A stretch of DNA of 35,657 bases from a virus (lineage: Duplodnaviria > Heunggongvirae > Uroviricota > Caudoviricetes). The notes below the pieces were generated by a model, which saw only the letters and a list, made by a program, of their open reading frames with translations, was not told where the DNA came from and searched no databases. Numbering within the stretch: position 1 is the first letter of the stretch; each line of letters opens with the position of its first letter. Position numbers and translations under genes: made by a program. Shown piece after piece: positions 23,741 through 35,657 of this stretch. The stretch covers positions 1 to 35,657 of IMG/VR virus record IMGVR_UViG_2740892433_000005, one strand, 5' to 3'.

Positions 23741-24484
23741 ATGACGCACACACTGAATCCGGTCATCACTGTCACTGTGTCCGGTCCTGTGGGCAGCGGT
23801 AAAAGTTACGTACTGGCGCGGATAGAAGAGATGGTGAAACAGGAACTCGGAAACAGCGTCATTGTCGATGCTGCTGACGTGGAGAATGAGCGCCGTATGA
23901 GTGGCGATGATCTGACGACCTGGCAGAAGCCACGGGGTGGCACAGTGATCAGGCTGGAGGAATACACGGGACAGGGCCTGTTGTCATACGGCGAGGAGCG
24001 TATCTGTCGGACGAATGAGCTGCTGGATGTTATATGCCCCGCGGGCCGGCAACCCTGGATACTGCCCGATGCACTGCATGCCACCATTGCGGCACTGATG
24101 ACAGTTTACGATCAGGAACTGCTCATGAAGGAGTTACGTAAACTCACCGGTCAGCCAACAGAATGTTTTTCGGCCCCGAAGTACGGGAAGCAGGAACACA
24201 TCCCGGTGAACACAATCCCCGTTAACCAGCCTCCCCGGTTCTTCGACGAATACATTCTGACACCGGAAAATAAAGCTGAGCATGAAGAGATCAAAGAGGC
24301 GTTGTTCCGGGAAATCAGGAAGATTGCTGAAATGCAACTGGGGGGCGGGCTGGACAGAGTGATGGCGAGAGGAGAATGGGAGTCGCTGTTTGAAAGAGTT
24401 TCCCCGGAATTACTGCCCCTCGCACTGGCTATCGGGATTATGCAGACAGCAGATAAACCTCACTTACGTTCATCAAACACGTAG
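23741..24484 (+). CDS. P-loop (Walker A GPVGSGKS) protein of unknown function
   Basis: 247-aa ORF, GAGGAG 8 nt upstream of ATG; Walker A-type motif at residues 15-22; no further family assignment possible by eye. Confidence 0.45.
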   Translation: MTHTLNPVITVTVSGPVGSGKSYVLARIEEMVKQELGNSVIVDAADVENERRMSGDDLTTWQKPRGGTVIRLEEYTGQGLLSYGEERICRTNELLDVICPAGRQPWILPDALHATIAALMTVYDQELLMKELRKLTGQPTECFSAPKYGKQEHIPVNTIPVNQPPRFFDEYILTPENKAEHEEIKEALFREIRKIAEMQLGGGLDRVMARGEWESLFERVSPELLPLALAIGIMQTADKPHLRSSNT

Positions 24485-24537
24485 CGCAGAATATTTTGCC
24501 GGTGAGTACATAAAAATCATCATTTAAGGAGTGCATC

Positions 24538-24762
24538 ATGAATCCCCGATTAACGTTAACAGAACATCAGCGCCGTGCCGAAGCAGTGAACAATGTTCTG
24601 GAAGATATTATCCGGTTACATCGCGGAGAACTGAGTGTCTGTCGTGCTACTGTTCATTTTCAGGAAATACAAAAGCAGTTCGATACTTCTGTTTTTGCAG
24701 AAGGGATCACTTATGCCCTGGACCAGATAAAGGCAGAAAATCGCTCCCCGGATAATCCCTAA
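24538..24762 (+). CDS. small hypothetical protein
   Basis: 74-aa ORF with strong TAAGGAG RBS 7 nt upstream of ATG, 53 nt downstream of the P-loop gene. Confidence 0.4.
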   Translation: MNPRLTLTEHQRRAEAVNNVLEDIIRLHRGELSVCRATVHFQEIQKQFDTSVFAEGITYALDQIKAENRSPDNP

Positions 24763-24811
24763 ACCACATTAACAGAAATCCCGCCATCCCTGCCGCATCA
24801 TGAAAGAACGA

Positions 24812-24839
24812 CCAGCCCGGAACCCGAAATCCGGGCTGG
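24812..24839 (+). other. 10-bp-stem hairpin in the leader upstream of the methyltransferase gene
   Basis: ccagcccgga / tccgggctgg perfect inverted repeat with 8-nt loop; not followed by a U-tract on the plus strand. Confidence 0.4.
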
Positions 24840-24944
24840 CCATCGTCCCACAGGAATGCACTGTGAGCCGACCGAGGTTCAGTCAGTCTCGCGAGACCAG
24901 ACTAGCCTGCCATATTTTTAGTAATTGTAAAAGGCTTACAGATT

Positions 24945-25709
24945 ATGAAAATGCAGACATTACCCATCGTTCCATGGATTGGTGGCAAACGCCGCCTTGC
25001 AAAACACATTCTGCCGCTGTTTCCGGCGCATGAATGTTATGTGGAGCCGTTTTGTGGGGCAGCAGCGCTCTATTTTCTTAAGACACCCGGCAAGATCGAA
25101 GTCATTAATGATATCAACGGTGAACTGGTGAATCTGTACCGGGTGGTAAAGCATCACCTGGAAGAATTTGTCCGCCAGTTCAAATGGGCGCTGGTCAGCC
25201 GTCAGATCTACAAATGGCTGCAGATCACCCCGGAAGAAACACTGACGGATATCCAGCGTGCGGCACGGTTCTACTACCTTCAGAAGCAGGCGTTTGGCGG
25301 CAAGGTGGCAGAGCACAGCTTCGGTACCTCCACCACATCCCCGCCACGCTTCAACCTGCTGCGTATTGAAGAAGAACTGTCAACAGCACACCTGCGGCTT
25401 TCCAGAACAGTCATAGAACACATGGACTGGCAACAGTGCATTGAGCGTTATGATCGTCCGCACACACTGTTCTACTGCGACCCACCGTACCTGGGTACGG
25501 AAGGCTATGGTGTGGATTTTCCTGAAGGGAACTACTCGCGGCTGGCAGAGCTGGCCCGGTGCATCAGAGGAAAAATGATAATTTCGGTGAACGATATCCC
25601 ACAGATGCGCGAGGTGTTCACTGGACTGAACATACAGACAGTGAACATCAACTACAGTCTGGCGGGGAAACCCACGCCGCGCCGTGAACTGGTAATCTGC
25701 AACTTCTGA
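24945..25709 (+). CDS. DNA N6-adenine methyltransferase, Dam (D12) class
   Basis: Motif I ..VEPFCGAAALYF.. and motif IV ..YCDPPYLGTEGY.. in the order typical of Dam-family enzymes; N-terminal ..PWIGGKRRL.. resembles the Dam N-terminus; 254 aa. Confidence 0.8.
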   Translation: MKMQTLPIVPWIGGKRRLAKHILPLFPAHECYVEPFCGAAALYFLKTPGKIEVINDINGELVNLYRVVKHHLEEFVRQFKWALVSRQIYKWLQITPEETLTDIQRAARFYYLQKQAFGGKVAEHSFGTSTTSPPRFNLLRIEEELSTAHLRLSRTVIEHMDWQQCIERYDRPHTLFYCDPPYLGTEGYGVDFPEGNYSRLAELARCIRGKMIISVNDIPQMREVFTGLNIQTVNINYSLAGKPTPRRELVICNF

Positions 25710-25825: not shown

Positions 25826-26179
25826 TCAGCCTGCGATTTTTCCTGGTTTTGGCTGAGTATAGAATCGCCCAATCTCAAGAAATGAGCGTTGTTGGTCTGG
25901 TGTCATGTTGTCAAAAGTATCTATTAATTTTTGTTTTTCGGGGGATATCCGGTTCTGAATTTCCACCTCACCATCTGTGCTCATACCCGTAAGAATGAAG
26001 GCAACATCTACTCCTGCGGCTCCTAAAACTACCAGTTTATCTAGCGGGATATTTCCTTTTTCCATCCAGTTATAAATCGTCGCCCGCGAGATACCAGTGG
26101 ACTTAGATACCGCCAAAGGACCAACACGTTTTAATTCTGAAATGAGACGCGCATGTATTTTTTCTAAATTAATGGACAT
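25826..26179 (-). CDS. prophage repressor (XRE-family HTH)
   Basis: ORF track 25826..26401; chosen start is the in-frame ATG at 26179 (MSINLEKIH..) because the longer form would read through the operator region and the Ner-like gene start; HTH ..VSKSTGISRATIYNWMEKG.. and ..VDVAFILTG.. helix typical of XRE/CI-type repressors; divergent from the early operon; visibly AT-rich. Confidence 0.65.
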   Translation of the reverse strand: MSINLEKIHARLISELKRVGPLAVSKSTGISRATIYNWMEKGNIPLDKLVVLGAAGVDVAFILTGMSTDGEVEIQNRISPEKQKLIDTFDNMTPDQQRSFLEIGRFYTQPKPGKIAG

Positions 26180-26184
26180 AAAAC

Positions 26185-26213
26185 TTGCTCTGTCTAAATT
26201 TTTAGACAATAAT
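26185..26213 (+). promoter_or_regulatory. candidate early promoter with operator palindrome in the spacer
   Basis: TTGCTC (26185-26190), 17-nt spacer, AATAAT (26208-26213); the spacer contains the perfect 16-bp palindrome GTCTAAATTTTTAGAC (26192-26207); a related half-site tctaaatt occurs at 26164-26171. Confidence 0.45.
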
Positions 26214-26260
26214 CTATCACACATAACGCAAACATCATTGCACCAAACAAGGAGACAACA

Positions 26261-26449
26261 ATGACTGCAGACCAGGTCAAAGCTCATTTCCGTCGCAATG
26301 GGATCACTTTTACCCAGTGGGCAAAACAGAACAACTACACCAGAGCGGAGGTTTACCGCGTACTGAATGGCCAGGTAAAAGCGAACTACGGCAAAGCCCA
26401 TGAAATCGCTGTAAAGCTGGGATTAAAAACCATCACTGACGCTGCTTAA
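26261..26449 (+). CDS. small DNA-binding regulator, Ner/Cro-like by position
   Basis: 62-aa ORF, AAGGAG 6 nt upstream of ATG; first rightward gene divergent from the repressor; no confident family match by eye. Confidence 0.45.
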   Translation: MTADQVKAHFRRNGITFTQWAKQNNYTRAEVYRVLNGQVKANYGKAHEIAVKLGLKTITDAA

Positions 26450-26498
26450 AAAGATACAGCATACGAAAAAGATTATCACATATTGAAAAGGTGTGCAG

Positions 26499-26804
26499 AT
26501 GAGTAAGGCGAATGTTTCAAGCTCCGGCACCCGTATCCTTCGGGTACTTAAGGCACTGCGCGGTCATGCCCTGAACGGTATTTCCAACGGTGAACTGGCA
26601 GCAGCACTGCACGAGTCACCGGCAAACATCAACCGGGCACTCAACACCCTCATCGAAGAAGGGCTGGCTCTGAAACTGGAAAACGGACGTTTTGCGCCGG
26701 GCATCCAGTTGCTGCAGATCGCCATGGCTCATAACAATGAAATGGCCCATGCCCAGGCCCGTATTAATGAAATCAACCAGCGTGTTATCGCTGGCAGCCG
26801 TTAA
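26499..26804 (+). CDS. putative winged-helix DNA-binding regulator
   Basis: ATG at 26499 preceded by AAAAGGTG; product ..GTRILRVLKALRGHALNGISNGELAAALHESPANINRALNTLIEEGLA.. looks like a winged-helix HTH. Confidence 0.4.
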   Translation: MSKANVSSSGTRILRVLKALRGHALNGISNGELAAALHESPANINRALNTLIEEGLALKLENGRFAPGIQLLQIAMAHNNEMAHAQARINEINQRVIAGSR

Positions 26805-26813
26805 GGAATAACT

Positions 26814-27746
26814 ATGGCTCGTACAAAATCACAACCTGCTGAACTTGTCCCTGACGTGGAACTGAATCCTGAACTGGAATCAACCCAAAATTTAATGGCA
26901 ACAGCTATCAGCCAGATTACTGATGAACGTGACCTGCTGAACCAATTACTTGGCCAAGCACAGATGGCAGGAGCATTCGAAGATTTTTCCCGCACCGTGC
27001 GGACTTCTAAACTGGCTTTTGTCAAAGAAAACAAGCTATACCGAAATTTAAAAGGCTCAAAAAGTCCGCACGGTGCGGAAAAAATGTCAGGAACATGGGA
27101 AGAATTTTGCAGTTTGCTTGGCAGGTCTGTTGATCAAGTAGATCGCGATATTGCCAACCTGAGAACCTTCGGCGAAGAAGCCCTCGAATCCATGTCACGT
27201 ATGGGAATCGGTTACCGTGAATTACGCCAGTTCCGCCGGCTGCCGGACGACCAGAAAAACGCACTCATTGAAGTGGCCAAAGAAGGCGATAAAACGGCCC
27301 TGCTGGAATTAGCAGAAGAAATGATCGCCAGACACACAAAAGAGAAAGAAGAACTTAAAACTGATCTCGAAATCAGCCGTCAGATGCTGGCAGAGAAGAA
27401 AAGTGAAATCGAAGTTCTCAAGGATCAGACTGACGAACTAAAGACAAAACTGACGCGCCGCGCGACAACAGAGACACCTGATGAAGAAGGTCAGGTACTT
27501 GAAACTGAAGCCACCGGTTTTAAGAGCGGTGTACTCAGCGCTCTTATCAACCTCAAATGCGGTTTTGAGGCACTGGCCGAACACGCAGAACGTACAGGTA
27601 TCAGCCATACCCACATTATGACAGGGTTGCTTGATGATATTGAAGCCCGTGTTGTCGATATGCGTCAGCAGTTTGATTTGCCTGACTTCCGCGAGATTGA
27701 TGGCATGCCGGACTGGGTGAAAGAAGCACAGGAAGGGGATGAATAA
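26814..27746 (+). CDS. hypothetical protein with coiled-coil region
   Basis: 310-aa ORF with AAGGA RBS; Glu/Lys-rich central heptad-like segment; AT-rich compared with flanking phage genes; no family recognised. Confidence 0.4.
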   Translation: MARTKSQPAELVPDVELNPELESTQNLMATAISQITDERDLLNQLLGQAQMAGAFEDFSRTVRTSKLAFVKENKLYRNLKGSKSPHGAEKMSGTWEEFCSLLGRSVDQVDRDIANLRTFGEEALESMSRMGIGYRELRQFRRLPDDQKNALIEVAKEGDKTALLELAEEMIARHTKEKEELKTDLEISRQMLAEKKSEIEVLKDQTDELKTKLTRRATTETPDEEGQVLETEATGFKSGVLSALINLKCGFEALAEHAERTGISHTHIMTGLLDDIEARVVDMRQQFDLPDFREIDGMPDWVKEAQEGDE

Positions 27747-28092
27747 CATGGTCGCTTCACATCCGACACCACCAGTAAAAGAACGCGAACCACAAGAAAG
27801 CCTTTTTATGGACAGCCCGGAAGCTCTTGGATACGCGTTATGCACTCTTGTACCAGACATGATGGCGGGATTCAGCATCCTGACAAGTACCGGAGAAATC
27901 AGGATTTCAGCACCCGATGCGCCTGCATTTGCCACTGCAATGGAAACATTACTTCTGGAAAAAATTCACTATATCCAGAACGAACGCAGTGACCATTCTG
28001 CCAACAAACGGGCTGTTGAGGCTGCGGAGAAACTTCTGGAGAACCGTAAGAAATGGAAGCAATGGCAACAAGAAGTGAAGGCTAATTTATGA
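27739..28092 (+). CDS. hypothetical protein
   Basis: 117-aa ORF overlapping the stop of the upstream gene and the start of the transposase gene (ATGA). Confidence 0.35.
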   Translation: MNNMVASHPTPPVKEREPQESLFMDSPEALGYALCTLVPDMMAGFSILTSTGEIRISAPDAPAFATAMETLLLEKIHYIQNERSDHSANKRAVEAAEKLLENRKKWKQWQQEVKANL

Positions 28093-29882
28093 ATCCGGCG
28101 CTGACGCAACGGCTCGTCAGCATAGCCGCCGCCGCTGACGCAGCTATACACGGCGAAAAAGAGGCGGTATACCGGGCGGCGTGTGAAGAATTACAGATGT
28201 CACGCGCCACCCTGCTAAAAAAGCTTAAGGGTGTACGGATGAGCAAACCACGCAAACAGCGATCTGATGCAGGTAAAACGACACTGACTCACGATGAAAT
28301 GCTGACTATTTCTGGTGCATGGCTGGCATCACCTCGCCCTGGTAACGGCAAGAAAGGTTACAGCCTGGAGGATATTGTGGACGGTTTACGCGATAACGGT
28401 CTGATTATTGCTGGTCGAACCGATACTGAGACTGGAGAATTTTTCCCGCTATCAATTGACGCCATCAGTCGCGCCCTCCGCCAGCATCGTATGCATCCCG
28501 ACCAGTTACGGGCACCATCTCCTGCTCTGGAGCTGGCCAGCCTGCACCCAAACCACGTCTGGCAACTGGATGCGTCTATTTGCGTACTGTATTACCTCAA
28601 AAATCCGGCTAAAAAGGCTAAGGGGGACACCGGACTGCGCGTCATGAGCGCAGCAGAGTTCAACAAAAACAAACCCCGCAATTTGGACCGTATTGTCAAT
28701 GACAGGGTGTGGTCATTTGAAATCACCGACCATACCACAGGCTGGATTTACGTCGAGTACCGCTTCGGTGGTGAAAGCGCCGTCAACTTTCTGGAGGTGA
28801 TGATTAACGCCATGCAGGAACGCGGTGGTGCAGACGTGCTGCACGGCGTGCCGAAGATTCTGTTTACTGACCCGGGCTCTGCACTTGTTTCAGCCTCCCT
28901 GCTCAACATGTGCCGGGCGATGGGTATTTGTACCATTCAGCATAAGGCTCACAACGCCCGGGCCACCGGTTCGGTGGAAAAAGCCCGTGACATTATCGAA
29001 CGCAAGTTTGAAGGGGGGCTGCGTTTTCTGAGGGTGGATGATATTGATGAACTGAACCGGCTTGCACGTCTCTGGCGCATGAAGTTTAACCGCACAGCAA
29101 TTCACAGCCGCCACTGTATGTCGCGTACAGATGCGTGGTTGAGAATTACCGAAGAGCAACTGGTAAAAGCCCCGGCACCTGAAATCTGCAGGGAACTGGC
29201 CATCTCTTTACCTGAAGAACGCACTGTTACCGGCAAGTTGCGCGTACCTTTCAGAGGCAAGGAATACGATGTGTCTGATGTTCCTGGTGTATTTGTCGGT
29301 GACAAGGTGATGGTTGCCCGTAATCCCTGGTCAGATGAGGAGGCCAGAGTCGTTATCATCAATGATGAAGGCTTTGAAACCTTCCATGTTATTAACGCAA
29401 TACAGAAAGATGAACTCTGGCAGTACAGCACCAGTGCGCCGGTGATTGGAGAGGAGTACCGTCAGTTACCGGAGACCATTACCCGGACGAACCGCGATGA
29501 GGTGGAGCAACATACCTACGGCACTGCCAGCCGGGAAGAAACAGATGCGGCTAAAAAAGACAAAGCTCTGCCATTCGGTGGTCGCTTCAACCCTTATCTG
29601 GATATTGAGCGCGATGATCATCCTGCCTACCTGCCGAAGCGAGGCCAGGCCTCTGACGTACGCGGACCGCGCACTGAACAGCGTCCCATGACTCATGTGG
29701 AGGCCGCGAAAGCCCTGCGCGATAAGTTCAGCGCCGACGGCCTTACCTGGACGCCGGAACATTACCGCCAGTTAACGGCACAGTACCCGGACGGCGTACC
29801 GGAAGCTGCACTGGATGAAGTCATGGCCACGCTGACCACGCCGGCACGCAGCAGTGTTATCAGCATTGTTAACGGCAACTGA
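28089..29882 (+). CDS. DDE-type transposase (integrase-core, rve-like)
   Basis: 597 aa; N-terminal HTH-like region; candidate catalytic residues in ..HVWQLDASI.., ..ILFTDPGSA.. and a Glu ~35 residues further on, the D-D-35-E spacing of retroviral-integrase-type transposases; followed by an ATPase gene as in Mu A/B and Tn552-type pairs. Confidence 0.7.
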   Translation: MNPALTQRLVSIAAAADAAIHGEKEAVYRAACEELQMSRATLLKKLKGVRMSKPRKQRSDAGKTTLTHDEMLTISGAWLASPRPGNGKKGYSLEDIVDGLRDNGLIIAGRTDTETGEFFPLSIDAISRALRQHRMHPDQLRAPSPALELASLHPNHVWQLDASICVLYYLKNPAKKAKGDTGLRVMSAAEFNKNKPRNLDRIVNDRVWSFEITDHTTGWIYVEYRFGGESAVNFLEVMINAMQERGGADVLHGVPKILFTDPGSALVSASLLNMCRAMGICTIQHKAHNARATGSVEKARDIIERKFEGGLRFLRVDDIDELNRLARLWRMKFNRTAIHSRHCMSRTDAWLRITEEQLVKAPAPEICRELAISLPEERTVTGKLRVPFRGKEYDVSDVPGVFVGDKVMVARNPWSDEEARVVIINDEGFETFHVINAIQKDELWQYSTSAPVIGEEYRQLPETITRTNRDEVEQHTYGTASREETDAAKKDKALPFGGRFNPYLDIERDDHPAYLPKRGQASDVRGPRTEQRPMTHVEAAKALRDKFSADGLTWTPEHYRQLTAQYPDGVPEAALDEVMATLTTPARSSVISIVNGN

Positions 29883-29892
29883 GGAGGAAAAC

Positions 29893-31059
29893 ATGCTGGT
29901 ACTGAAGCAGCAACTGAAAGAGGCCCGTATCCCACAGGCGGTGGTGGCGAGAGCTGTCGATGTTTCTGAGGCCACGCTGGCCCAGATTGTGAATCATAAC
30001 GCGTGGCCCCGCACCAGCCCCGGAGAAGTGCGCCGGCGTCTTGCGTCCTGGCTGGAAAGTCAGGGGATTGATACAACGAAGAGTTTTGATGCTGTACAGG
30101 GCGCAGCCACGCCCCGTACAGCGGGTACCACAGATAAAACGAGCCTCAGTGAGGAAGAGAATATGTTACTCAAAAAACAGGTGTTATTTCCAGCAACCAA
30201 AAAAGCGTTTGGTCTTTTCCGTGACCCGTTCGCCGATGAAGCCATGCAGGGTTCTGATGATGTGTTCACCACCCCGGACATTCGCTACGTGCGTGAGGCG
30301 TTGTACCAGACAGCCCGTCATGGTGGGTTTATGGCCGTCATCGGTGAGTCCGGTGCGGGTAAATCCACGCTGCGCCGCGACCTGACTGAACGTATCAACC
30401 GCGAGAATGCGCCGGTAATTGTTATCGAGCCATACATCATCGCTATGGAAGACAACGATGTGAAAGGGAAAACCCTGAAGGCAGCAGCGATTGCCGAAGC
30501 CATTATCAGTACCATCGCACCACTGGAAAGCATCAGACGCAGTCAGGACGCCCGTTTTCGCCAGTTGCATCGCGTCCTGAAAGACAGCAGCCAGGCGGGG
30601 TTCAGCCACGTTCTGGTGATTGAGGAGGCCCACAGTCTGCCCATTCCGACACTGAAACACCTCAAACGCTTTTTTGAGCTGGAGTCCGGTTTCAAAAAAC
30701 TGCTGTCCATCGTGCTGATTGGCCAGCCGGAACTGGCGACAAAACTGTCTGAACGCAATATGGAAGTCCGTGAAGTCGTTCAGCGCTGTGAGGTGGTCGA
30801 ACTTCTGCCTCTGGACAATAACCTTGAAGAATTTCTGACGTTCAAACTGCAACGGGCCGGTAAACAGCTGACGGACATTATGGACGCCGGTGCAGTGGAT
30901 GCCATACGTGCCCGCCTGAGCAATCCGGGAAGTCACCGTAAAAATATGGTCAGCCTGCTGTATCCGCTGGCCGTCAGTAACCTGGTAATAGCCGCCATGA
31001 ATCTGGCCGCTGAAATCGGGGTTCCACAGGTCAACGCTGACGTTGTCAAAGGGGTTTAA
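29893..31059 (+). CDS. transposition ATPase (MuB-like, AAA+)
   Basis: ATG at 29893 with GAGGAGG upstream; N-terminal HTH-like segment then Walker A ..GESGAGKST.. and Walker B-like ..HVLVIEEAH..; immediately downstream of the transposase. Confidence 0.7.
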   Translation: MLVLKQQLKEARIPQAVVARAVDVSEATLAQIVNHNAWPRTSPGEVRRRLASWLESQGIDTTKSFDAVQGAATPRTAGTTDKTSLSEEENMLLKKQVLFPATKKAFGLFRDPFADEAMQGSDDVFTTPDIRYVREALYQTARHGGFMAVIGESGAGKSTLRRDLTERINRENAPVIVIEPYIIAMEDNDVKGKTLKAAAIAEAIISTIAPLESIRRSQDARFRQLHRVLKDSSQAGFSHVLVIEEAHSLPIPTLKHLKRFFELESGFKKLLSIVLIGQPELATKLSERNMEVREVVQRCEVVELLPLDNNLEEFLTFKLQRAGKQLTDIMDAGAVDAIRARLSNPGSHRKNMVSLLYPLAVSNLVIAAMNLAAEIGVPQVNADVVKGV

Positions 31060-31358: not shown

Positions 31359-31889
31359 ATGGCAAAAAGTACAAAAGGTGCAAAACGTATCAAGGCCGCA
31401 GCAGCACTCTGGGTGCCGGGGACACGTGAAGAGGTCATTGAGGGAATCAGACTACTCGGTGACGCACAACGTGAACTGGTCAGGGCTGAAACAGAAATGA
31501 ATGACGCCATTGGCGATATCACCGCACGTTATGCCCCGCTCACCGAGAGCCTGAAAAAACGCATGGCCGAACTGCAGTCCGGTATTCAGACATGGTGTGA
31601 GGCACACCGTGATGAACTGACCGGCAACGGGAAGGTGAAGTTCGCTAACCTCACCACCGGCGAGGTGCAGTGGCGAAACCGTCCGCCGTCAGTCAGCATT
31701 CGCGGGGCGGATAATGTCATTGAACTGCTGAGACGTCTGGGGCTTGAGCGCTTTATTCGTGTAAAGGAGGAAATAAATAAAGATGCCATTCTGAATGAAA
31801 AAGAGGCTGTGAAAAATATTCCCGGTATTACCATAAAAAGTGATATTGAGGATTTTTCAATAATTCCTTTTGAGCAGGATGTGCAGTAA
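31359..31889 (+). CDS. gam: host-nuclease inhibitor Gam (Mu Gam-like DNA end-binding protein)
   Basis: 176 aa; long collinear similarity to Mu Gam as I remember it (MAK..KRIK.AAA..VP..R..VI..I...GD.QRE..R.ETEMNDAI..IT....P......WCEA.RDELT..GKVK.ANL.TG.V.WR.RPPSVSIRG.D.V.E.L.RLGL.RFIR.K.EINK.AIL.E..AV....GIT.KS.IEDFSIIPFEQ). Confidence 0.85.
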   Translation: MAKSTKGAKRIKAAAALWVPGTREEVIEGIRLLGDAQRELVRAETEMNDAIGDITARYAPLTESLKKRMAELQSGIQTWCEAHRDELTGNGKVKFANLTTGEVQWRNRPPSVSIRGADNVIELLRRLGLERFIRVKEEINKDAILNEKEAVKNIPGITIKSDIEDFSIIPFEQDVQ

Positions 31890-31931
31890 ACACACCACGT
31901 TAATTATTTAATAAAAACATTTTCTTTTTTA

Positions 31932-31968
31932 TTCCGGCGTCAGCGCCGCGGGCTTCTGCACGCCGGAA
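31932..31968 (+). other. stem-loop in the gam-downstream intergenic region
   Basis: ttccggcgt (31932-31940) and acgccggaa (31960-31968) perfect 9-bp inverted repeat with 19-nt loop, preceded by a T-run and followed by GAGGAG and the next ATG. Confidence 0.3.
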
Positions 31969-31986
31969 ACAGAGGAGAATTAAATC

Positions 31987-32181
31987 ATGATATTTAAATG
32001 TATTCAGTGCGAGAGGGATATAACAGCCCTGCGTTTTCACAGCGCCATCGCCGTGATGTCCGGTAAATACCACATCCCTGCGGTACGCGTCACCCTGGTC
32101 TGCCCGTACTGCAGCCAGCATTTTTCGGCAGACGTGCCCGTCATGGAATTCTCCCGCCCTGACAGGGAGGACTCGCAATGA
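31987..32181 (+). CDS. small Cys-rich protein (zinc-ribbon-like CxxC...CxxC)
   Basis: 64-aa ORF with C-x2-C (CIQC) and C-x2-C (CPYC) pairs about 38 residues apart; GAGGAG RBS. Confidence 0.4.
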   Translation: MIFKCIQCERDITALRFHSAIAVMSGKYHIPAVRVTLVCPYCSQHFSADVPVMEFSRPDREDSQ

Positions 32182-32450
32182 TTACCCCACAGGAAGCACG
32201 ACAGCGCACCCGAACCCTTGTTGAACACTATGTCAACGAGTGTGAATGCCGCGACCTCACCGATGTGAAGCACGTCCTGACGGCGCTAATCAGCATTGCC
32301 GCTCAGGCCATTGTGGCGACCAACGGAAAGGCGGCTGCCCTGCAGGTACTGGTGAACACACTCACCCACACGGCAGAGCATGAGGTGCCGTACCGGATGG
32401 AAACCACTGCAGAAGGCGGCCTGCACATCACCGTCAGCCGGAAGCACTGA
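32178..32450 (+). CDS. hypothetical early protein
   Basis: 90-aa ORF with ATGA overlap to the upstream gene. Confidence 0.35.
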   Translation: MITPQEARQRTRTLVEHYVNECECRDLTDVKHVLTALISIAAQAIVATNGKAAALQVLVNTLTHTAEHEVPYRMETTAEGGLHITVSRKH

Positions 32451-34540: not shown

Positions 34541-34910
34541 GGGGCCGGAACTCCTGGTGGAACTGGCACAGCATACCTCTGAGACCGTTCGCGAGATTAT
34601 TGATATTGAGCCCGAAGTTGCCGACCAGATTGGTCAGGCCGTCGCGAACCGAATGATGCAGGTCTGGGGCGGGCAAAACGTTTATTTTCCTATGGGCATG
34701 GTATGGAAGGTCAGTCAGCGCGACCGGGAAATCTTCAGGGAGTTTAACGGACGCAACCACCACGAACTGGCCCGCAAGTTTGGTGTTTCGCTTCAGTGGG
34801 TCTACAGCGTGGTTAAGCGGGTCAGAAAAGAAGAACTGGATCGGATGCAGGGCAGGTTGTTTGATGAAGATCTGCCAGAGGAGACGAAAGACGTTAACAA
34901 ATCCAGATAA
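34512..34910 (+). CDS. mor: Mor/C-family transcriptional activator
   Basis: 132 aa; C-terminal ..GGQNVYFPMG....RDREIFREFNGRNHHELARKFGVSLQWVYSVVKRVRK.. matches the Mor/C HTH region pattern (..GGQ.VYIP.G......R...I...FNGRN...L...YGV....VY..IRR.R.); last gene of the rightward operon. Confidence 0.7.
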   Translation: MSDLNQFRSKGPELLVELAQHTSETVREIIDIEPEVADQIGQAVANRMMQVWGGQNVYFPMGMVWKVSQRDREIFREFNGRNHHELARKFGVSLQWVYSVVKRVRKEELDRMQGRLFDEDLPEETKDVNKSR

Positions 34911-34952
34911 TTCCTGCTTGTTAAAGTCCTTTCAAAAATCTCCTTATTGTAT

Positions 34953-34987
34953 AAAAGCACGGTAGACCCCTTACCGTGCTTTTTTTA
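34953..34987 (+). terminator. rho-independent terminator after the Mor-like gene
   Basis: agcacggta (34956-34964) and taccgtgct (34972-34980) 9-bp perfect stem, 7-nt loop, followed by TTTTTT (34981-34986); 46 nt after the stop codon. Confidence 0.7.
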
Positions 34988-35024
34988 TGCTCTCTCTTTA
35001 GTATTCAGGATGCAGGGAGAAAAT

Positions 35025-35657
35025 ATGTTTGACGTTTCGTTGTTAAATCTGCCATGGGCAACACTGGTGACCCTGACCAGTGGCTATATTGGGTATTTTA
35101 TTGCGAATGTGGGACTGAAGGATCACCACAAGCCCATTGAGGTGACTTTTTCTTCGCTGATTTTTGGCCTGACAGCAATGATGGCTTACCAGGCTGTTAT
35201 GTGGGCAGGTCTGAATGCCTGGCTGGCAACACCACCAGCACTTCTGTGTGCCGTTACATGCGGTGCGTGGTGGCGCAGGTACGGTCGCAAATGGATGTAC
35301 AGATTACTGTGGAATAATGATATTTCATGGTCTGACGATACCAGCTCAGCATGGCAGGCAATGTTTGATCAAACAGGCTTCAGCGTTACCGAGGTCAGAG
35401 TGATTCTTCGCGATGGTTCCGGTATGATGTCACGACTGCCAGGGAACTTTGAAGAGTGGCCTAACGGTCCGTTTACCCTGGGGAATAAAGGCGATATGGT
35501 TCTTTACGTCACGCACAGCAGCCCTTCAGGCAGTAACGAATGGGAAGAGTATAAAGGCGTGGTTGATAAGTACTGGGGAGCTCTGGCAACCTATATTCCA
35601 GCAGATCAGATTGCCAGAGTGGAGATCAGGCGCGTTCGTGCGACGAACGATGAATGA
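35025..35657 (+). CDS. membrane protein of unknown function (3 predicted N-terminal TM helices plus soluble C-terminal domain)
   Basis: ATG at 35025 with AGGGAG 8 nt upstream; hydrophobic segments in the first ~90 residues; stop codon is the last three bases of the window. Confidence 0.5.
   Translation: MFDVSLLNLPWATLVTLTSGYIGYFIANVGLKDHHKPIEVTFSSLIFGLTAMMAYQAVMWAGLNAWLATPPALLCAVTCGAWWRRYGRKWMYRLLWNNDISWSDDTSSAWQAMFDQTGFSVTEVRVILRDGSGMMSRLPGNFEEWPNGPFTLGNKGDMVLYVTHSSPSGSNEWEEYKGVVDKYWGALATYIPADQIARVEIRRVRATNDE

What the first reader, a model, noticed from the sequence alone, without database searches (positions are those of the whole stretch)
25826..28092. AT-rich block covering the repressor and two unknown genes inserted between the regulators and the transposase
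By eye the stretch from the repressor through the 310-aa and 117-aa genes is clearly richer in A/T than the flanking late and transposition genes, which suggests a mosaic origin. In Mu itself the transposase gene follows ner directly; here a winged-helix gene plus a 310-aa coiled-coil protein and a 117-aa protein are interposed. Genes placed at the very start of the early operon are expressed first on induction and are good candidates for host-takeover or anti-defence functions.
Basis: partly seen in the sequence, partly recalled or inferred. Interest (0 to 1): 0.55.

Follow-up and report, generated by a model that had tools for sequence, protein, structure and literature searches.

The report
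Transposase partner gene carrying its own sites
The AT-rich stretch is real, but its 310-aa gene is not inserted cargo: it sits beside the transposase in every phage of this type examined, and it appears to encode a DNA-binding protein that recognises two palindromes inside its own coding sequence.

Summary
The window is an intact BcepMu-like transposable prophage of E. coli SCU-105. The AT-rich observation holds: 46.7% GC against 55.0% elsewhere, the lowest stretch of that length in the window. It is composite. The repressor and operator are at 42% and the p310 and p117 genes at 47%, but the winged-helix (WH) gene between them is at 54.5%.

The "interposed cargo" reading fails for WH and p310. 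WH, a ~300-aa protein, transposase and B ATPase occur in that order in all 9 annotated phage records inspected and in 77 of 80 genome loci.

p310 is all-alpha and modular: a helix-turn-helix (HTH) domain, then a coiled-coil C-terminal part that co-varies with the transposase type. Its reading frame holds two identical 13-bp palindromes, 76 bp apart. In 52 related loci the palindrome sequence differs between phages, yet both copies change together. The HTH recognition-helix residues 104, 106, 107 and 111 change with them (Arg with G:C, Glu with C:G).

I infer a site-specific accessory protein of the transposition module, possibly enhancer-like. p117 is lineage-restricted and of unknown function. 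Mosaicism is real: 4 of 5,426 E. coli genomes carry this allele at full length.

The parts
25826..26179 (-). Repressor, 117 aa, with an AlpA/CI-type HTH. It is the most AT-rich CDS of the prophage.
   Evidence: RefSeq CDS. Sub-threshold Phage_CI_repr and AlpA hits. GC 42.1%, GC3 36.4%. The 3' part is 95% identical in DNA to PhiKM, but the HTH-coding part (25993-26197) has no DNA match.
26180..26260 (.). Divergent promoter/operator region between the repressor and the ner-like gene, with a dyad GTCTAAA-TT-TTTAGAC at 26192-26207.
   Evidence: Sequence. Repeat D1. Promoter-like site at 26173-26200 on the + strand, though the number of such sites is not above chance.
26261..26449 (+). Ner-like small HTH protein of the BcepMu gp16 family; first gene of the early operon.
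   Evidence: TIGR04111, 95.5 bits against a cutoff of 34. phrog_925, E 3e-31.
26493..26804 (+). Winged-helix protein with an IclR-type HTH (equivalent to BcepMu gp12 and B3 ORF14). Normal GC. Found upstream of the ~300-aa gene in every annotated phage record inspected and in most genome loci.
   Evidence: HTH_IclR 27.4 bits (GA 22) and HTH_24 23.8 bits (GA 21.9). phrog_1368, E 2e-43. Synteny. GC 54.5%.
26814..27746 (+). p310, 310 aa, all-alpha. Layout: N-terminal long helix (residues 19-72), compact helical HTH domain (about 93-160), then a coiled-coil/helical C-terminal domain (176-310). It is the p310-type allele of the BcepMu gp10 / B3 ORF13 gene.
   Evidence: phrog_4623, E 3e-115. 901 50%-identity clusters match at E<=1e-3. 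AlphaFold2 pLDDT 90.4. hhalign against DUF3102-type proteins: probability 99.6%, E 3e-24, residues 93-307. HMM of the C-terminal domain hits B3, BcepMu, PhiKM and KP12 at E 1e-23 to 1e-29.
26990..27002 (.). Site 1: perfect 13-bp palindrome CCGCAC-C-GTGCGG inside the p310 ORF (codons 59-63).
   Evidence: It sits at the same codons in 52 loci, with a phage-specific sequence and dyad symmetry kept.
27066..27078 (.). Site 2: perfect 13-bp palindrome CCGCAC-G-GTGCGG inside the p310 ORF (codons 85-89), 76 bp after site 1.
   Evidence: Same calls as site 1. This is the only pair of identical perfect 6-N-6 palindromes within 200 bp in the whole window. No other copy occurs in the window at 0 mismatches.
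27120..27149 (+). Codons 103-112 (GRSVDQVDRD): the turn and start of the predicted HTH recognition helix. These are the residues that co-vary with the palindrome sequence.
   Evidence: Helices 95-102 and 106-119 in the model. Normalised mutual information: residue 111 with half-site position 4, 1.00; residue 106 with position 1, 1.00; residues 107 and 104, 0.79 and 0.73. Code table. No third DNA copy of the site lies under these codons. HTH_28 sub-threshold hits in 9 of 31 family members.
27339..27746 (+). p310 C-terminal domain (residues 176-310), shared between p310-type and DUF3102-type proteins. It co-varies with the transposase type.
   Evidence: Spearman rho 0.61-0.67 with the tnpA N-terminus and core, but -0.06 with the p310 middle domain. 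Of 55 loci with this C-terminal type, 53 have a transposase at least 36% identical to the window's; all 19 loci with the alternative C-terminus have less than 36%. Between B3 and JD18, DNA homology starts at about codon 196 of this gene and runs on through A and B.
27739..28092 (+). p117, 117 aa. A conserved ~65-aa N-terminal core followed by a hypervariable C-terminal tail. Lineage-restricted accessory gene of unknown function.
   Evidence: phrog_5446, E 9e-16. Clear homologues (43-58% identity) lie between the ~300-aa gene and tnpA in Enterobacterales loci and PhiKM, with tails of 0-230 aa. Two weaker hits (32% and 42%) lie upstream of the ~300-aa gene in L065 and L074. The core also occurs in the early operon of F10-like Pseudomonas phages. 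No Pfam or PADLOC hit.
28089..29882 (+). Transposase A, 597 aa, DDE/rve type. It has no match to a MuA-type N-terminal enhancer-binding domain. The mosaic joint with PhiKM lies at nt 29621 (codon ~511).
   Evidence: phrog_310, E 4e-115, aligned from profile position 129 of 696. Only a weak rve hit in Pfam. 63% identity to PhiKM, with the last ~87 residues identical in the alignment.
29893..31059 (+). Transposition ATPase B (ExeA/AAA_22 type).
   Evidence: AAA_22, E 4e-20. phrog_296. RefSeq CDS. Its similarity tracks the tnpA C-terminus (rho 0.80).

Best explanation
The AT-rich block is two things lying side by side.

(1) The immunity switch: repressor, divergent promoters and the ner-like gene. 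This part is AT-rich, and its repressor HTH-coding segment has no DNA match in the close relative PhiKM.

(2) The first part of the transposition cassette WH - p310 - (p117) - A - B of BcepMu/B3-type transposable phages.

p310 is the window's allele of BcepMu gp10 / B3 ORF13. I propose the following mechanism.
- Supported by covariation: p310 is a sequence-specific DNA-binding protein. Its helix-turn-helix reads two identical 13-bp palindromes, 76 bp apart, that lie inside its own coding sequence.
- Inferred: it binds as a dimer, as the dyad-symmetric sites and the coiled coil suggest.
- Inferred from covariation and mosaic joints: its C-terminal domain contacts the cognate transposase.
- Inferred by analogy: the protein-site complex acts in cis as an enhancer-like assembly or activation element for transposition. 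It would supply in trans what MuA domain I-alpha and the Mu internal activation sequence supply in Mu.

p117 is a lineage-restricted accessory gene of unknown role.

The low GC of p310 is a standing property of this gene family, not a mark of recent import. The mosaicism is real and comes from exchange of whole modules.
For: Conserved position:
- The order WH, ~300-aa gene, A, B holds in PhiKM, KP12, BcepMu, B3, JD18, PM105, Bhz63 and Bise and in 77 of 80 genome loci from gamma- and beta-proteobacteria.
- Organism counts of the transposase and the ~300-aa family match across the 50,697 phage records.
- p310-type and DUF3102-type proteins are homologous (99.6%, E 3e-24).

DNA binding:
- The model is confident (pLDDT 90 for the whole protein, 94 for the domain), with helices 95-102 and 106-119.
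- Recurrent sub-threshold HTH_28 and HTH_32 hits.
- 17 of 150 family representatives end in a canonical AT-hook.

Sites:
- Two perfect identical palindromes at 26990 and 27066, unique in the window.
- In 52 loci they fall at the same codons, 76 bp apart, with 12 different sequences. Both copies always change together and keep their symmetry.
- The centre base does not co-vary between the two sites.

Protein-site covariation:
- Apart from residues encoded by the sites themselves, the top-ranked residues among ner, WH, p310, tnpA and tnpB are p310 residues 104, 106, 107 and 111, in the recognition helix. The repressor and p117 had too few homologues to test.
- The code is chemically sensible. 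Position 4 = C goes with Arg111, G with Glu111, and A with Leu/Met/Gln/Ile111. Arg106 occurs only with half-sites starting with G, although one G-starting half-site (GGAAAC) has Ala106.
- Close relatives switch helix and both sites together: window, L091 (88% identity) and L007 (86%). Distant relatives share the window's helix and site: L008 fully, and L028 (50% identity) with one mismatch in site 2.
- No hidden third DNA copy under those codons explains the correlation.

Link to the transposase:
- Covariation of the C-terminal domain.
- Mosaic joints: the PhiKM comparison swaps p310 + p117 + tnpA codons 1-510 as one block; the B3/JD18 joint lies at about codon 196 of the gene.
- Positive control for the approach: the tnpA C-terminus tracks B (rho 0.80), as expected from the known MuA-MuB contact.

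Independent hint of a cis role: non-autonomous mini-elements with phage-type ends keep a p310-type gene with its sites but have no A, B or WH. One of them also has a 6-bp target duplication.

DUF3102-type genes carry a single perfect palindrome at one conserved position: 26-30 bp in B3, BcepMu, PhiKM and KP12, and 18 bp in Bhz63. About 0.007 per gene would be expected by chance for arms of 9 or more.
Against: - Nothing has been tested experimentally. Binding is inferred from covariation only.
- Sequences in the covariation set are phylogenetically related, and no tree-corrected statistic was computed.
- Covariation of the C-terminal domain with the transposase is confounded by physical adjacency.
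- The enhancer role is an analogy, not a result.
- The two sites can also pair as a long RNA stem in the window (-44.8 kcal/mol, z -6.3). The DUF3102-type palindromes look like bidirectional intrinsic terminators: a hairpin followed by a U run, z -4.5 to -5.3. An RNA-level role therefore cannot be excluded.
- Some p310-type loci lack the palindromes in this register (L017, L069, L076, L078, L082, L083).
- The role of the WH protein is not explained.
Confidence: 0.45

Rival explanations
1. p310 binds its intragenic sites for gene regulation rather than for transposition chemistry. It would act as an autoregulatory roadblock or timer that limits read-through from the early promoter into the transposase and B genes, possibly together with the WH protein.
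For: The sites lie inside the early operon, directly upstream of A and B. The genes are tightly coupled. The upstream neighbour is a winged-helix regulator. The DUF3102-type palindromes resemble terminators placed before the transposase gene.
Against: The mini-elements keep the gene and its sites although nothing lies downstream to regulate: the p310-type gene is the last gene before the element end. The C-terminal domain tracks the transposase type rather than the regulators.
Confidence: 0.22
2. The palindromes are mainly RNA (or single-strand DNA) structures: an attenuator or terminator hairpin inside the ORF. On this view p310 does not read them.
For: The window region folds at -44.8 kcal/mol with z -6.3, and L007 gives z -3.7. 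The B3, BcepMu and PhiKM palindromes form 12-16-bp hairpins followed by UUUUG.
Against: - Each 13-mer is itself a palindrome, which an RNA stem between the two sites does not require.
- The centre bases do not pair in many loci (G/G or A/G), and L091 folds no better than shuffled sequence (z -1.05).
- An RNA model does not explain why recognition-helix residues 104-111 track the site with an Arg-G / Glu-C code.
Confidence: 0.1
3. One reading: the genes between ner and the transposase are variable cargo expressed first on induction, with host-takeover or anti-defence functions.
For: p117 is lineage-restricted. Its C-terminal tail is hypervariable and its core also occurs in the early operon of non-transposable F10-like phages. 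The slot between the ~300-aa gene and tnpA holds extra ORFs in some relatives. Early-operon expression is shown for a relative (PMC9936078).
Against: WH and p310 are conserved at this position in every phage record inspected with this transposase type. p310 has a cognate DNA site. There are no PADLOC hits. No anti-defence library was available to test.
Confidence: 0.08
4. p310 is a ParB/KorB-like centromere or silencing protein. It would bind a site inside its own gene, as many parB genes do, and organise or anchor the phage DNA rather than act on the transposase.
Against: None of these scores is significant. No ParB N-terminal domain and no ParA partner is present. The profile search of PDB sequences found no ParB. 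An integrated, transposing genome has no obvious need for partition.
Confidence: 0.07

Closest known systems
BcepMu gp10 / B3 ORF13 (annotated 'DUF3102 domain-containing protein'; PHROG 1748 and 4623)
   Same: Same position between the winged-helix regulator and the transposase. Same length and all-alpha build. The C-terminal domain is clearly homologous. Both types carry dyad-symmetric sites inside the gene. No function is assigned in the literature (PMC9936078).
   Different: The window protein has a different N-terminal and HTH module, which does not reach the Pfam DUF3102 threshold. It carries two 13-bp sites 76 bp apart instead of one perfect 18-30-bp palindrome.
MuA domain I-alpha with the Mu enhancer (internal activation sequence, O1-O2)
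   Same: This is a proposed functional analogy. Both involve an internal pair of sites, bound by a DNA-binding module linked to the transposase, in a transposable phage. The window transposase has no match to that N-terminal domain. Knowledge of Mu here comes from the established literature, not from a tool result.
   Different: Here the module would be a separate protein, not a transposase domain. The sites lie inside a coding sequence, not in the operator. There is no sequence or fold relation to MuA I-alpha: HTH_Tnp_Mu_1 matched 1 of 60 members at E 0.007. The function has not been tested.
ParB-parS and KorB-OB
   Same: A dimeric HTH protein reading a palindrome that can lie inside its own gene; KorB operators are also 13-bp palindromes. 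Weak fold resemblance of the HTH domain.
   Different: No ParB N-terminal domain, no ParA-type partner, and no significant structural or sequence match. The C-terminal domain tracks a transposase.

Membership tests
BcepMu/B3-type transposable phage (Bcepmuvirus-like prophage) | DDE transposase plus AAA+ B ATPase, ner-like gene, Gam, GemA and Mor, with a Mu-like virion module | tested here: met
   Closest phage record is PhiKM, classified as Bcepmuvirus.
BcepMu/B3-type transposable phage (Bcepmuvirus-like prophage) | TG...CA termini with repeated transposase sites and a short target duplication | tested here: met
   The ends lie just outside the window in the source genome. The early-side end is TGAAGGGACGTGAGATAA...CGTGAGATAA, the late-side end is ...GCGCATCA, with a 6-bp duplication GCAAAC inside a split sulfatase-like gene. 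The end motif is shared with B3 and BcepMu.
gp10/ORF13 family (PHROG 4623 / 1748) | Significant match to the family profile | tested here: met
   phrog_4623, E 3e-115 over residues 3-307; phrog_1748, E 8e-25 over residues 89-306.
gp10/ORF13 family (PHROG 4623 / 1748) | Position between the winged-helix gene and the transposase gene | tested here: met
Pfam DUF3102 (PF11300) | Score at or above the gathering threshold (24.4 bits) | tested here: not met
   The window protein and JD18 gp14 have no hit at E<=1. B3 (26.5), PhiKM (27.0) and KP12 (30.2) pass; BcepMu gp10 scores 15.7. The profile-profile alignment spans the region, but with low per-column confidence there.
ParB/KorB-type HTH proteins | Significant fold or sequence match of the DNA-binding domain | tested here: inconclusive
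ParB/KorB-type HTH proteins | ParB N-terminal (CTP-binding) domain and a ParA-type partner | tested here: not met
   No such Pfam hit in p310 and no ParA-like gene in the prophage annotation.
MuA I-alpha / Mu repressor DNA-binding domain (HTH_Tnp_Mu_1) | Match to PF02316 | tested here: not met
   1 of 60 family members at E 0.007 and none for the window protein. No hit in the transposase.
Site-specific HTH DNA-binding protein (general) | HTH motif plus a cognate dyad-symmetric site that co-varies with recognition-helix residues | tested here: met
   This is covariation evidence only; binding itself was not testable with these tools.
Anti-phage defence or anti-defence cargo | Match to a known defence-system protein model | tested here: not met
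   PADLOC found no hit for p310 or p117. No anti-defence library was available, so that half is untested.

The most novel reading that the evidence does not exclude
BcepMu/B3-type transposable phages use a previously unrecognised extra component: the gp10/ORF13/p310 protein together with palindromic sites embedded in its own gene.

The pair would work as a specificity-switchable, trans-acting enhancer or recruitment module for the transposase. It has been exchanged between phages as cassettes. Natural non-autonomous mini-elements exploit it: they carry phage ends, a Mor-like activator, a head-protease fragment and their own p310-type gene with its sites, but no transposase.
Probability: 0.3. 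Interest if true: 0.75.

Novelty: new variant of a known kind. Interest (0 to 1): 0.62.

Why it matters
Phages of the B3 and BcepMu type are common prophages of Pseudomonas, Burkholderia, Salmonella, Enterobacter and E. coli. The gene next to their transposase has stayed "hypothetical" since 2004.

The analysis yields a concrete, testable model:
- a protein whose recognition helix and two binding sites can be read from the sequence;
- a simple amino-acid-to-base code;
- a second domain that follows the transposase type.

If the model holds, it would show how a Mu-like transposase that lacks an enhancer-binding domain is directed to its own DNA. It would explain why specificity variants exist among close relatives. 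It would also point to a class of small elements that may parasitise these phages.

There is a methodological lesson too. Low GC here is a family trait of the gene, not a sign of recent acquisition.

Tried and rejected
- Profile searches of PDB sequences, with the whole family and with the domain only, found nothing relevant.
- Pfam and NCBIfam gave no family for p310 or p117. PF28420, listed for close homologues, is only a weak coiled-coil match (CCDC122).
- The literature holds nothing on the function of DUF3102 or on these ORFs.
- I looked for a WH-p310 fusion among longer homologues and found none.
- WH-p310 covariation is weak (rho 0.07-0.27). No WH residue ranks high against the palindromes.
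- BcepMu gp11 is not related to p117.
- The word-index homologue search for p117 gave only 8 close relatives.
- Apparent off-diagonal DNA matches came from a file that held two loci (PhiKM and JD18), not from a real repeat.
- The phage end motif does not recur near p310.
- The idea that AT-richness marks a recent import was rejected, because the same GC gap is seen in most relatives.
Full report
**What the window is.** The sequence is 100% identical to E. coli SCU-105 and covers a BcepMu-like transposable prophage. The closest phage record is PhiKM, classified as Bcepmuvirus. In the source genome the prophage is intact. It has TG...CA ends with repeated CGTGAGATAA sites and a 6-bp target duplication (GCAAAC), and it sits inside a split sulfatase-like gene.

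The local gene order is as follows:
- dam methylase
- repressor, 25826-26179 (-)
- ner-like gene, 26261-26449
- winged-helix protein (WH), 26493-26804
- p310, 26814-27746
- p117, 27739-28092
- transposase A, 28089-29882
- B ATPase, 29893-31059
- gam

**The observation.** The stretch 25826-28092 is 46.7% GC against 55.0% for the rest of the window. It is lower than every sliding window of the same length. By CDS, the repressor is the most AT-rich of 53 genes, and p117 and p310 are 4th and 5th by GC3. The block is not uniform, because the WH gene has normal GC (54.5%).

**Is it inserted cargo?** No, for WH and p310. The order WH, ~300-aa protein, transposase, B holds in all of the following:
- PhiKM, KP12, BcepMu (gp12-gp11-gp10-gp9-gp8), B3 (ORF14-13-12-11), JD18, PM105, Bhz63 and Bise;
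- 77 of 80 loci recovered from bacterial genomes of gamma- and beta-proteobacteria.

In the phage collection, 69 records hold this transposase type. Of these, 67 are hit by B3 ORF13, and the remaining two are hit by the p310 N-terminal part. The organism counts match.

The window protein (phrog_4623) and the DUF3102-type proteins of B3, BcepMu and PhiKM are homologous (hhalign 99.6%, E 3e-24). They share the C-terminal domain. The family is large: 901 clusters at 50% identity.

**Is the AT-richness a sign of import?** Only weakly. The p310 homologue has lower GC than the neighbouring transposase in 69 of 77 loci (mean -3.8 points; GC3 -6.1), in hosts from 34% to 72% GC. The Enterobacter and Salmonella relatives show the same gap as the window. 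Low GC is therefore a trait of the gene family.

Mosaicism is nevertheless real, and comparison shows it directly. Against PhiKM:
- the flanks are 95-98% identical in DNA, and WH is 93% identical in protein;
- p310 aligns only over its C-terminal 130 aa, at 31%;
- p117 is 44% identical;
- the transposase is 63% identical overall, with near-identity resuming at nt 29621.

In complete E. coli genomes, 530 of 5,426 share the regulator part, with homology ending at window 26832. Only 4 carry this p310+p117 allele at full length, and about 24 carry a version interrupted by IS5. The same allele set is common in Enterobacter and Salmonella.

**What p310 is.** The AlphaFold2 model is confident (pLDDT 90.4) and all-alpha:
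- a long helix, residues 19-72;
- a compact helical domain, with helices 95-102 and 106-119 forming a helix-turn-helix;
- long C-terminal helices.

The central domain is the best-conserved piece of the whole module, at 1.2-1.9 bits per residue in every locus. Curated libraries give only sub-threshold HTH hits (HTH_28 in 9 of 31 members). No solved structure matches significantly. KorB, Spo0J and Noc DNA-binding domains recur among the weak matches. Seventeen of 150 family representatives, those with an alternative C-terminal domain, end in a canonical AT-hook.

**The key result.** Inside the p310 reading frame lie two identical perfect palindromes, CCGCAC-N-GTGCGG, at 26990-27002 and 27066-27078. 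They are the only such pair in the window.

In 52 related loci the pair falls at the same codons and the same 76-bp spacing. The sequence differs between phages, with 12 types of the form NNNN-AC-N-GT-NNNN. Both copies always change together and keep their dyad symmetry, at the cost of amino-acid changes at the encoded positions.

I computed mutual information between the variable half-site bases and every residue of the ner-like protein, WH, p310, A and B. The repressor and p117 had too few homologues to test. After the residues encoded by the sites themselves, p310 residues 104, 106, 107 and 111 rank highest, ahead of every WH, ner, tnpA or tnpB residue. These are the turn and the first turns of the predicted recognition helix.

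The correspondence is chemically sensible:
- C at half-site position 4 goes with Arg111;
- G goes with Glu111;
- A goes with Leu, Met, Gln or Ile at 111;
- Arg106 occurs only with half-sites that start with G, although one such half-site (GGAAAC) has Ala106.

Close relatives switch helix and both sites together:
- window: GRSVDQVDRD with CCGCAC;
- L091 (88% identical): GISVDKADLD with CCGAAC;
- L007 (86% identical): GKSSQHIDEE with CCTGAC.

A distant Pseudomonas locus (L028, 50% identical) has the window's helix and its site 1, with one mismatch in site 2. L008 (71% identical) shares both exactly. No third DNA copy of the site under those codons could explain the correlation.

The DUF3102-type genes lack the pair. 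Most carry one perfect palindrome at a single conserved position, again different in each phage. It is 26-30 bp in B3, BcepMu, PhiKM and KP12, and 18 bp in Bhz63. Bise has only a 13-bp dyad there and PM105 none.

**Link to the transposase.**
- The p310 C-terminal domain correlates with the transposase N-terminus and core (rho 0.61-0.67). It does not correlate with the rest of p310.
- Of 55 loci with this C-terminal type, 53 have a transposase at least 36% identical to the window's. All 19 loci with the other type have less.
- Mosaic joints respect these units. PhiKM and the window differ by a block made of p310 + p117 + tnpA codons 1-510. Between B3 and JD18, DNA homology starts at about codon 196 of the ~300-aa gene and runs on through A and B.
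- As a control, the transposase C-terminus tracks B (rho 0.80), in line with the known MuA-MuB contact.
- Adjacency confounds all of these.

**Mini-elements.** Three of the 80 genome loci hold a p310-type gene without A, B or WH. In Tenebrionibacter the unit is 4,424 bp. It is bounded by TG...CA with the same end motifs as the phages and is flanked by a 6-bp duplication between host genes. It encodes a Mor-like activator, a head-protease fragment, two small proteins and the p310-type gene with both palindromes. Its terminal 18 nt are identical to the early end of full-length phages whose transposase is 95% identical to the window's. Keeping the gene and its sites where nothing lies downstream argues for a role in cis on the element itself.

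**Mechanism and its rivals.**
- Best supported (by covariation, not by assay): p310 reads two sites inside its own gene.
- Inferred: its C-terminal domain contacts the cognate transposase, and the complex acts as an enhancer-like assembly element. This would replace the MuA I-alpha domain, to which this transposase has no match.
- Rivals: an autoregulatory roadblock before A and B; an RNA attenuator; a ParB-like organiser. For the RNA rival, the two sites can pair in the window (z -6.3), and the DUF3102-type palindromes look like terminators. That rival does not explain the dyad symmetry of each site or the helix covariation.
- The literature assigns no function to these ORFs (PMC9936078).

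**p117.** It has a conserved ~65-aa core and a tail that varies from 0 to about 230 aa. Clear homologues occur only in Enterobacterales relatives, between the ~300-aa gene and tnpA. Two weaker hits lie upstream of that gene in L065 and L074. The core also occurs in the early operon of F10-like Pseudomonas phages. Its function is unknown.

**Verdict.**
- What is really there is a conserved but uncharacterised partner of the transposase, with a readable protein-site recognition code.
- I rate it a new variant of a known kind, with moderate to high interest.

Noticed in passing
L014 2697-7120 (Tenebrionibacter intestinalis NZ_JAEPBH010000008.1); also L015, L016, L102: A 4,424-bp non-autonomous element bounded by TG...CA with BcepMu-type end sites and a 6-bp target duplication (GCGATT), lying between host tsx and nrdR. 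It encodes a Mor-like activator, a head-protease fragment, two small proteins and a p310-type gene with both palindromes, but no transposase or B. L015, L016 and an IMG/VR contig (L102) hold larger versions that also carry a DUF3102-type paralogue. It looks like a satellite or mini-element of these phages.
   Followed up: partly
Outside the window: L095 1470-1515 and L096 225-270 (NZ_CP051738.1): The window stops short of both prophage ends. In the genome the prophage has TG...CA ends, two CGTGAGATAA sites 23 bp apart at the early end, ATTTATCGC[AG]C sites at the late end, and a 6-bp duplication GCAAAC in a split sulfatase-like gene. The end motif is shared with B3 and BcepMu.
   Followed up: yes
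L005 3415-3440 (B3 ORF13); L003 3404-3433 (BcepMu gp10); L001 4688-4715 (PhiKM); L004 3434-3461 (KP12); L089 1892-1909 (Bhz63): Each DUF3102-type gene holds one perfect palindrome at the same protein position (residues ~117-127). It is 26-30 bp in B3, BcepMu, PhiKM and KP12, with CAAAA...TTTTG outer arms and a phage-specific centre, and 18 bp in Bhz63. As RNA, the three tested (B3, BcepMu, PhiKM) fold as strong hairpins followed by a U run.
   Followed up: partly
window 29621-29882 and 29893-31059: The last ~87 residues of the transposase and the whole B ATPase are about 98% identical in DNA to PhiKM, while the rest of the transposase is only about 60% identical. The joint falls where MuA-type transposases contact their B protein.
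   Followed up: partly
window 25826-26260: The 3' part of the repressor gene is 95% identical in DNA to PhiKM, but the part coding the HTH (25993-26197) has no DNA match, which suggests an immunity swap. A dyad GTCTAAA-TT-TTTAGAC (26192-26207) with a related copy 30 bp upstream lies in the divergent promoter region.
   Followed up: no
E. coli genomes, e.g. NZ_CP014522.1 952501-953963: About 24 complete E. coli genomes, including an O25:H4 strain, carry a p310-type gene (83% DNA identity over its first ~400 nt) that is annotated together with an IS5 transposase. This suggests the gene is interrupted.
   Followed up: no
Representative proteins P0163, P0173, P0179, P0184-P0187, P0199, P0202, P0203, P0214, P0224, P0234, P0236, P0238, P0243, P0244: Seventeen of 150 family representatives have a different C-terminal domain that ends in a canonical AT-hook (R/K-GRP-K/R). 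Loci with an alternative C-terminus sit next to a transposase only 27-35% identical to the window's.
   Followed up: partly
window 24251-25000, 31501-32250, 34751-35250: Three further AT-rich islands (46-47% GC). They cover a 74-aa ORF with its intergenic DNA, the region after gam, and the last early-side gene. The tail-fibre assembly gene is also AT-rich (GC3 39.5%).
   Followed up: no
L008, L011, L012, L020 (between the p310 homologue and tnpA): In some Enterobacterales relatives the p117-type gene is extended to 138-294 aa, or is followed by extra ORFs. The slot just before the transposase is therefore variable, even though the ~300-aa gene is not.
   Followed up: partly
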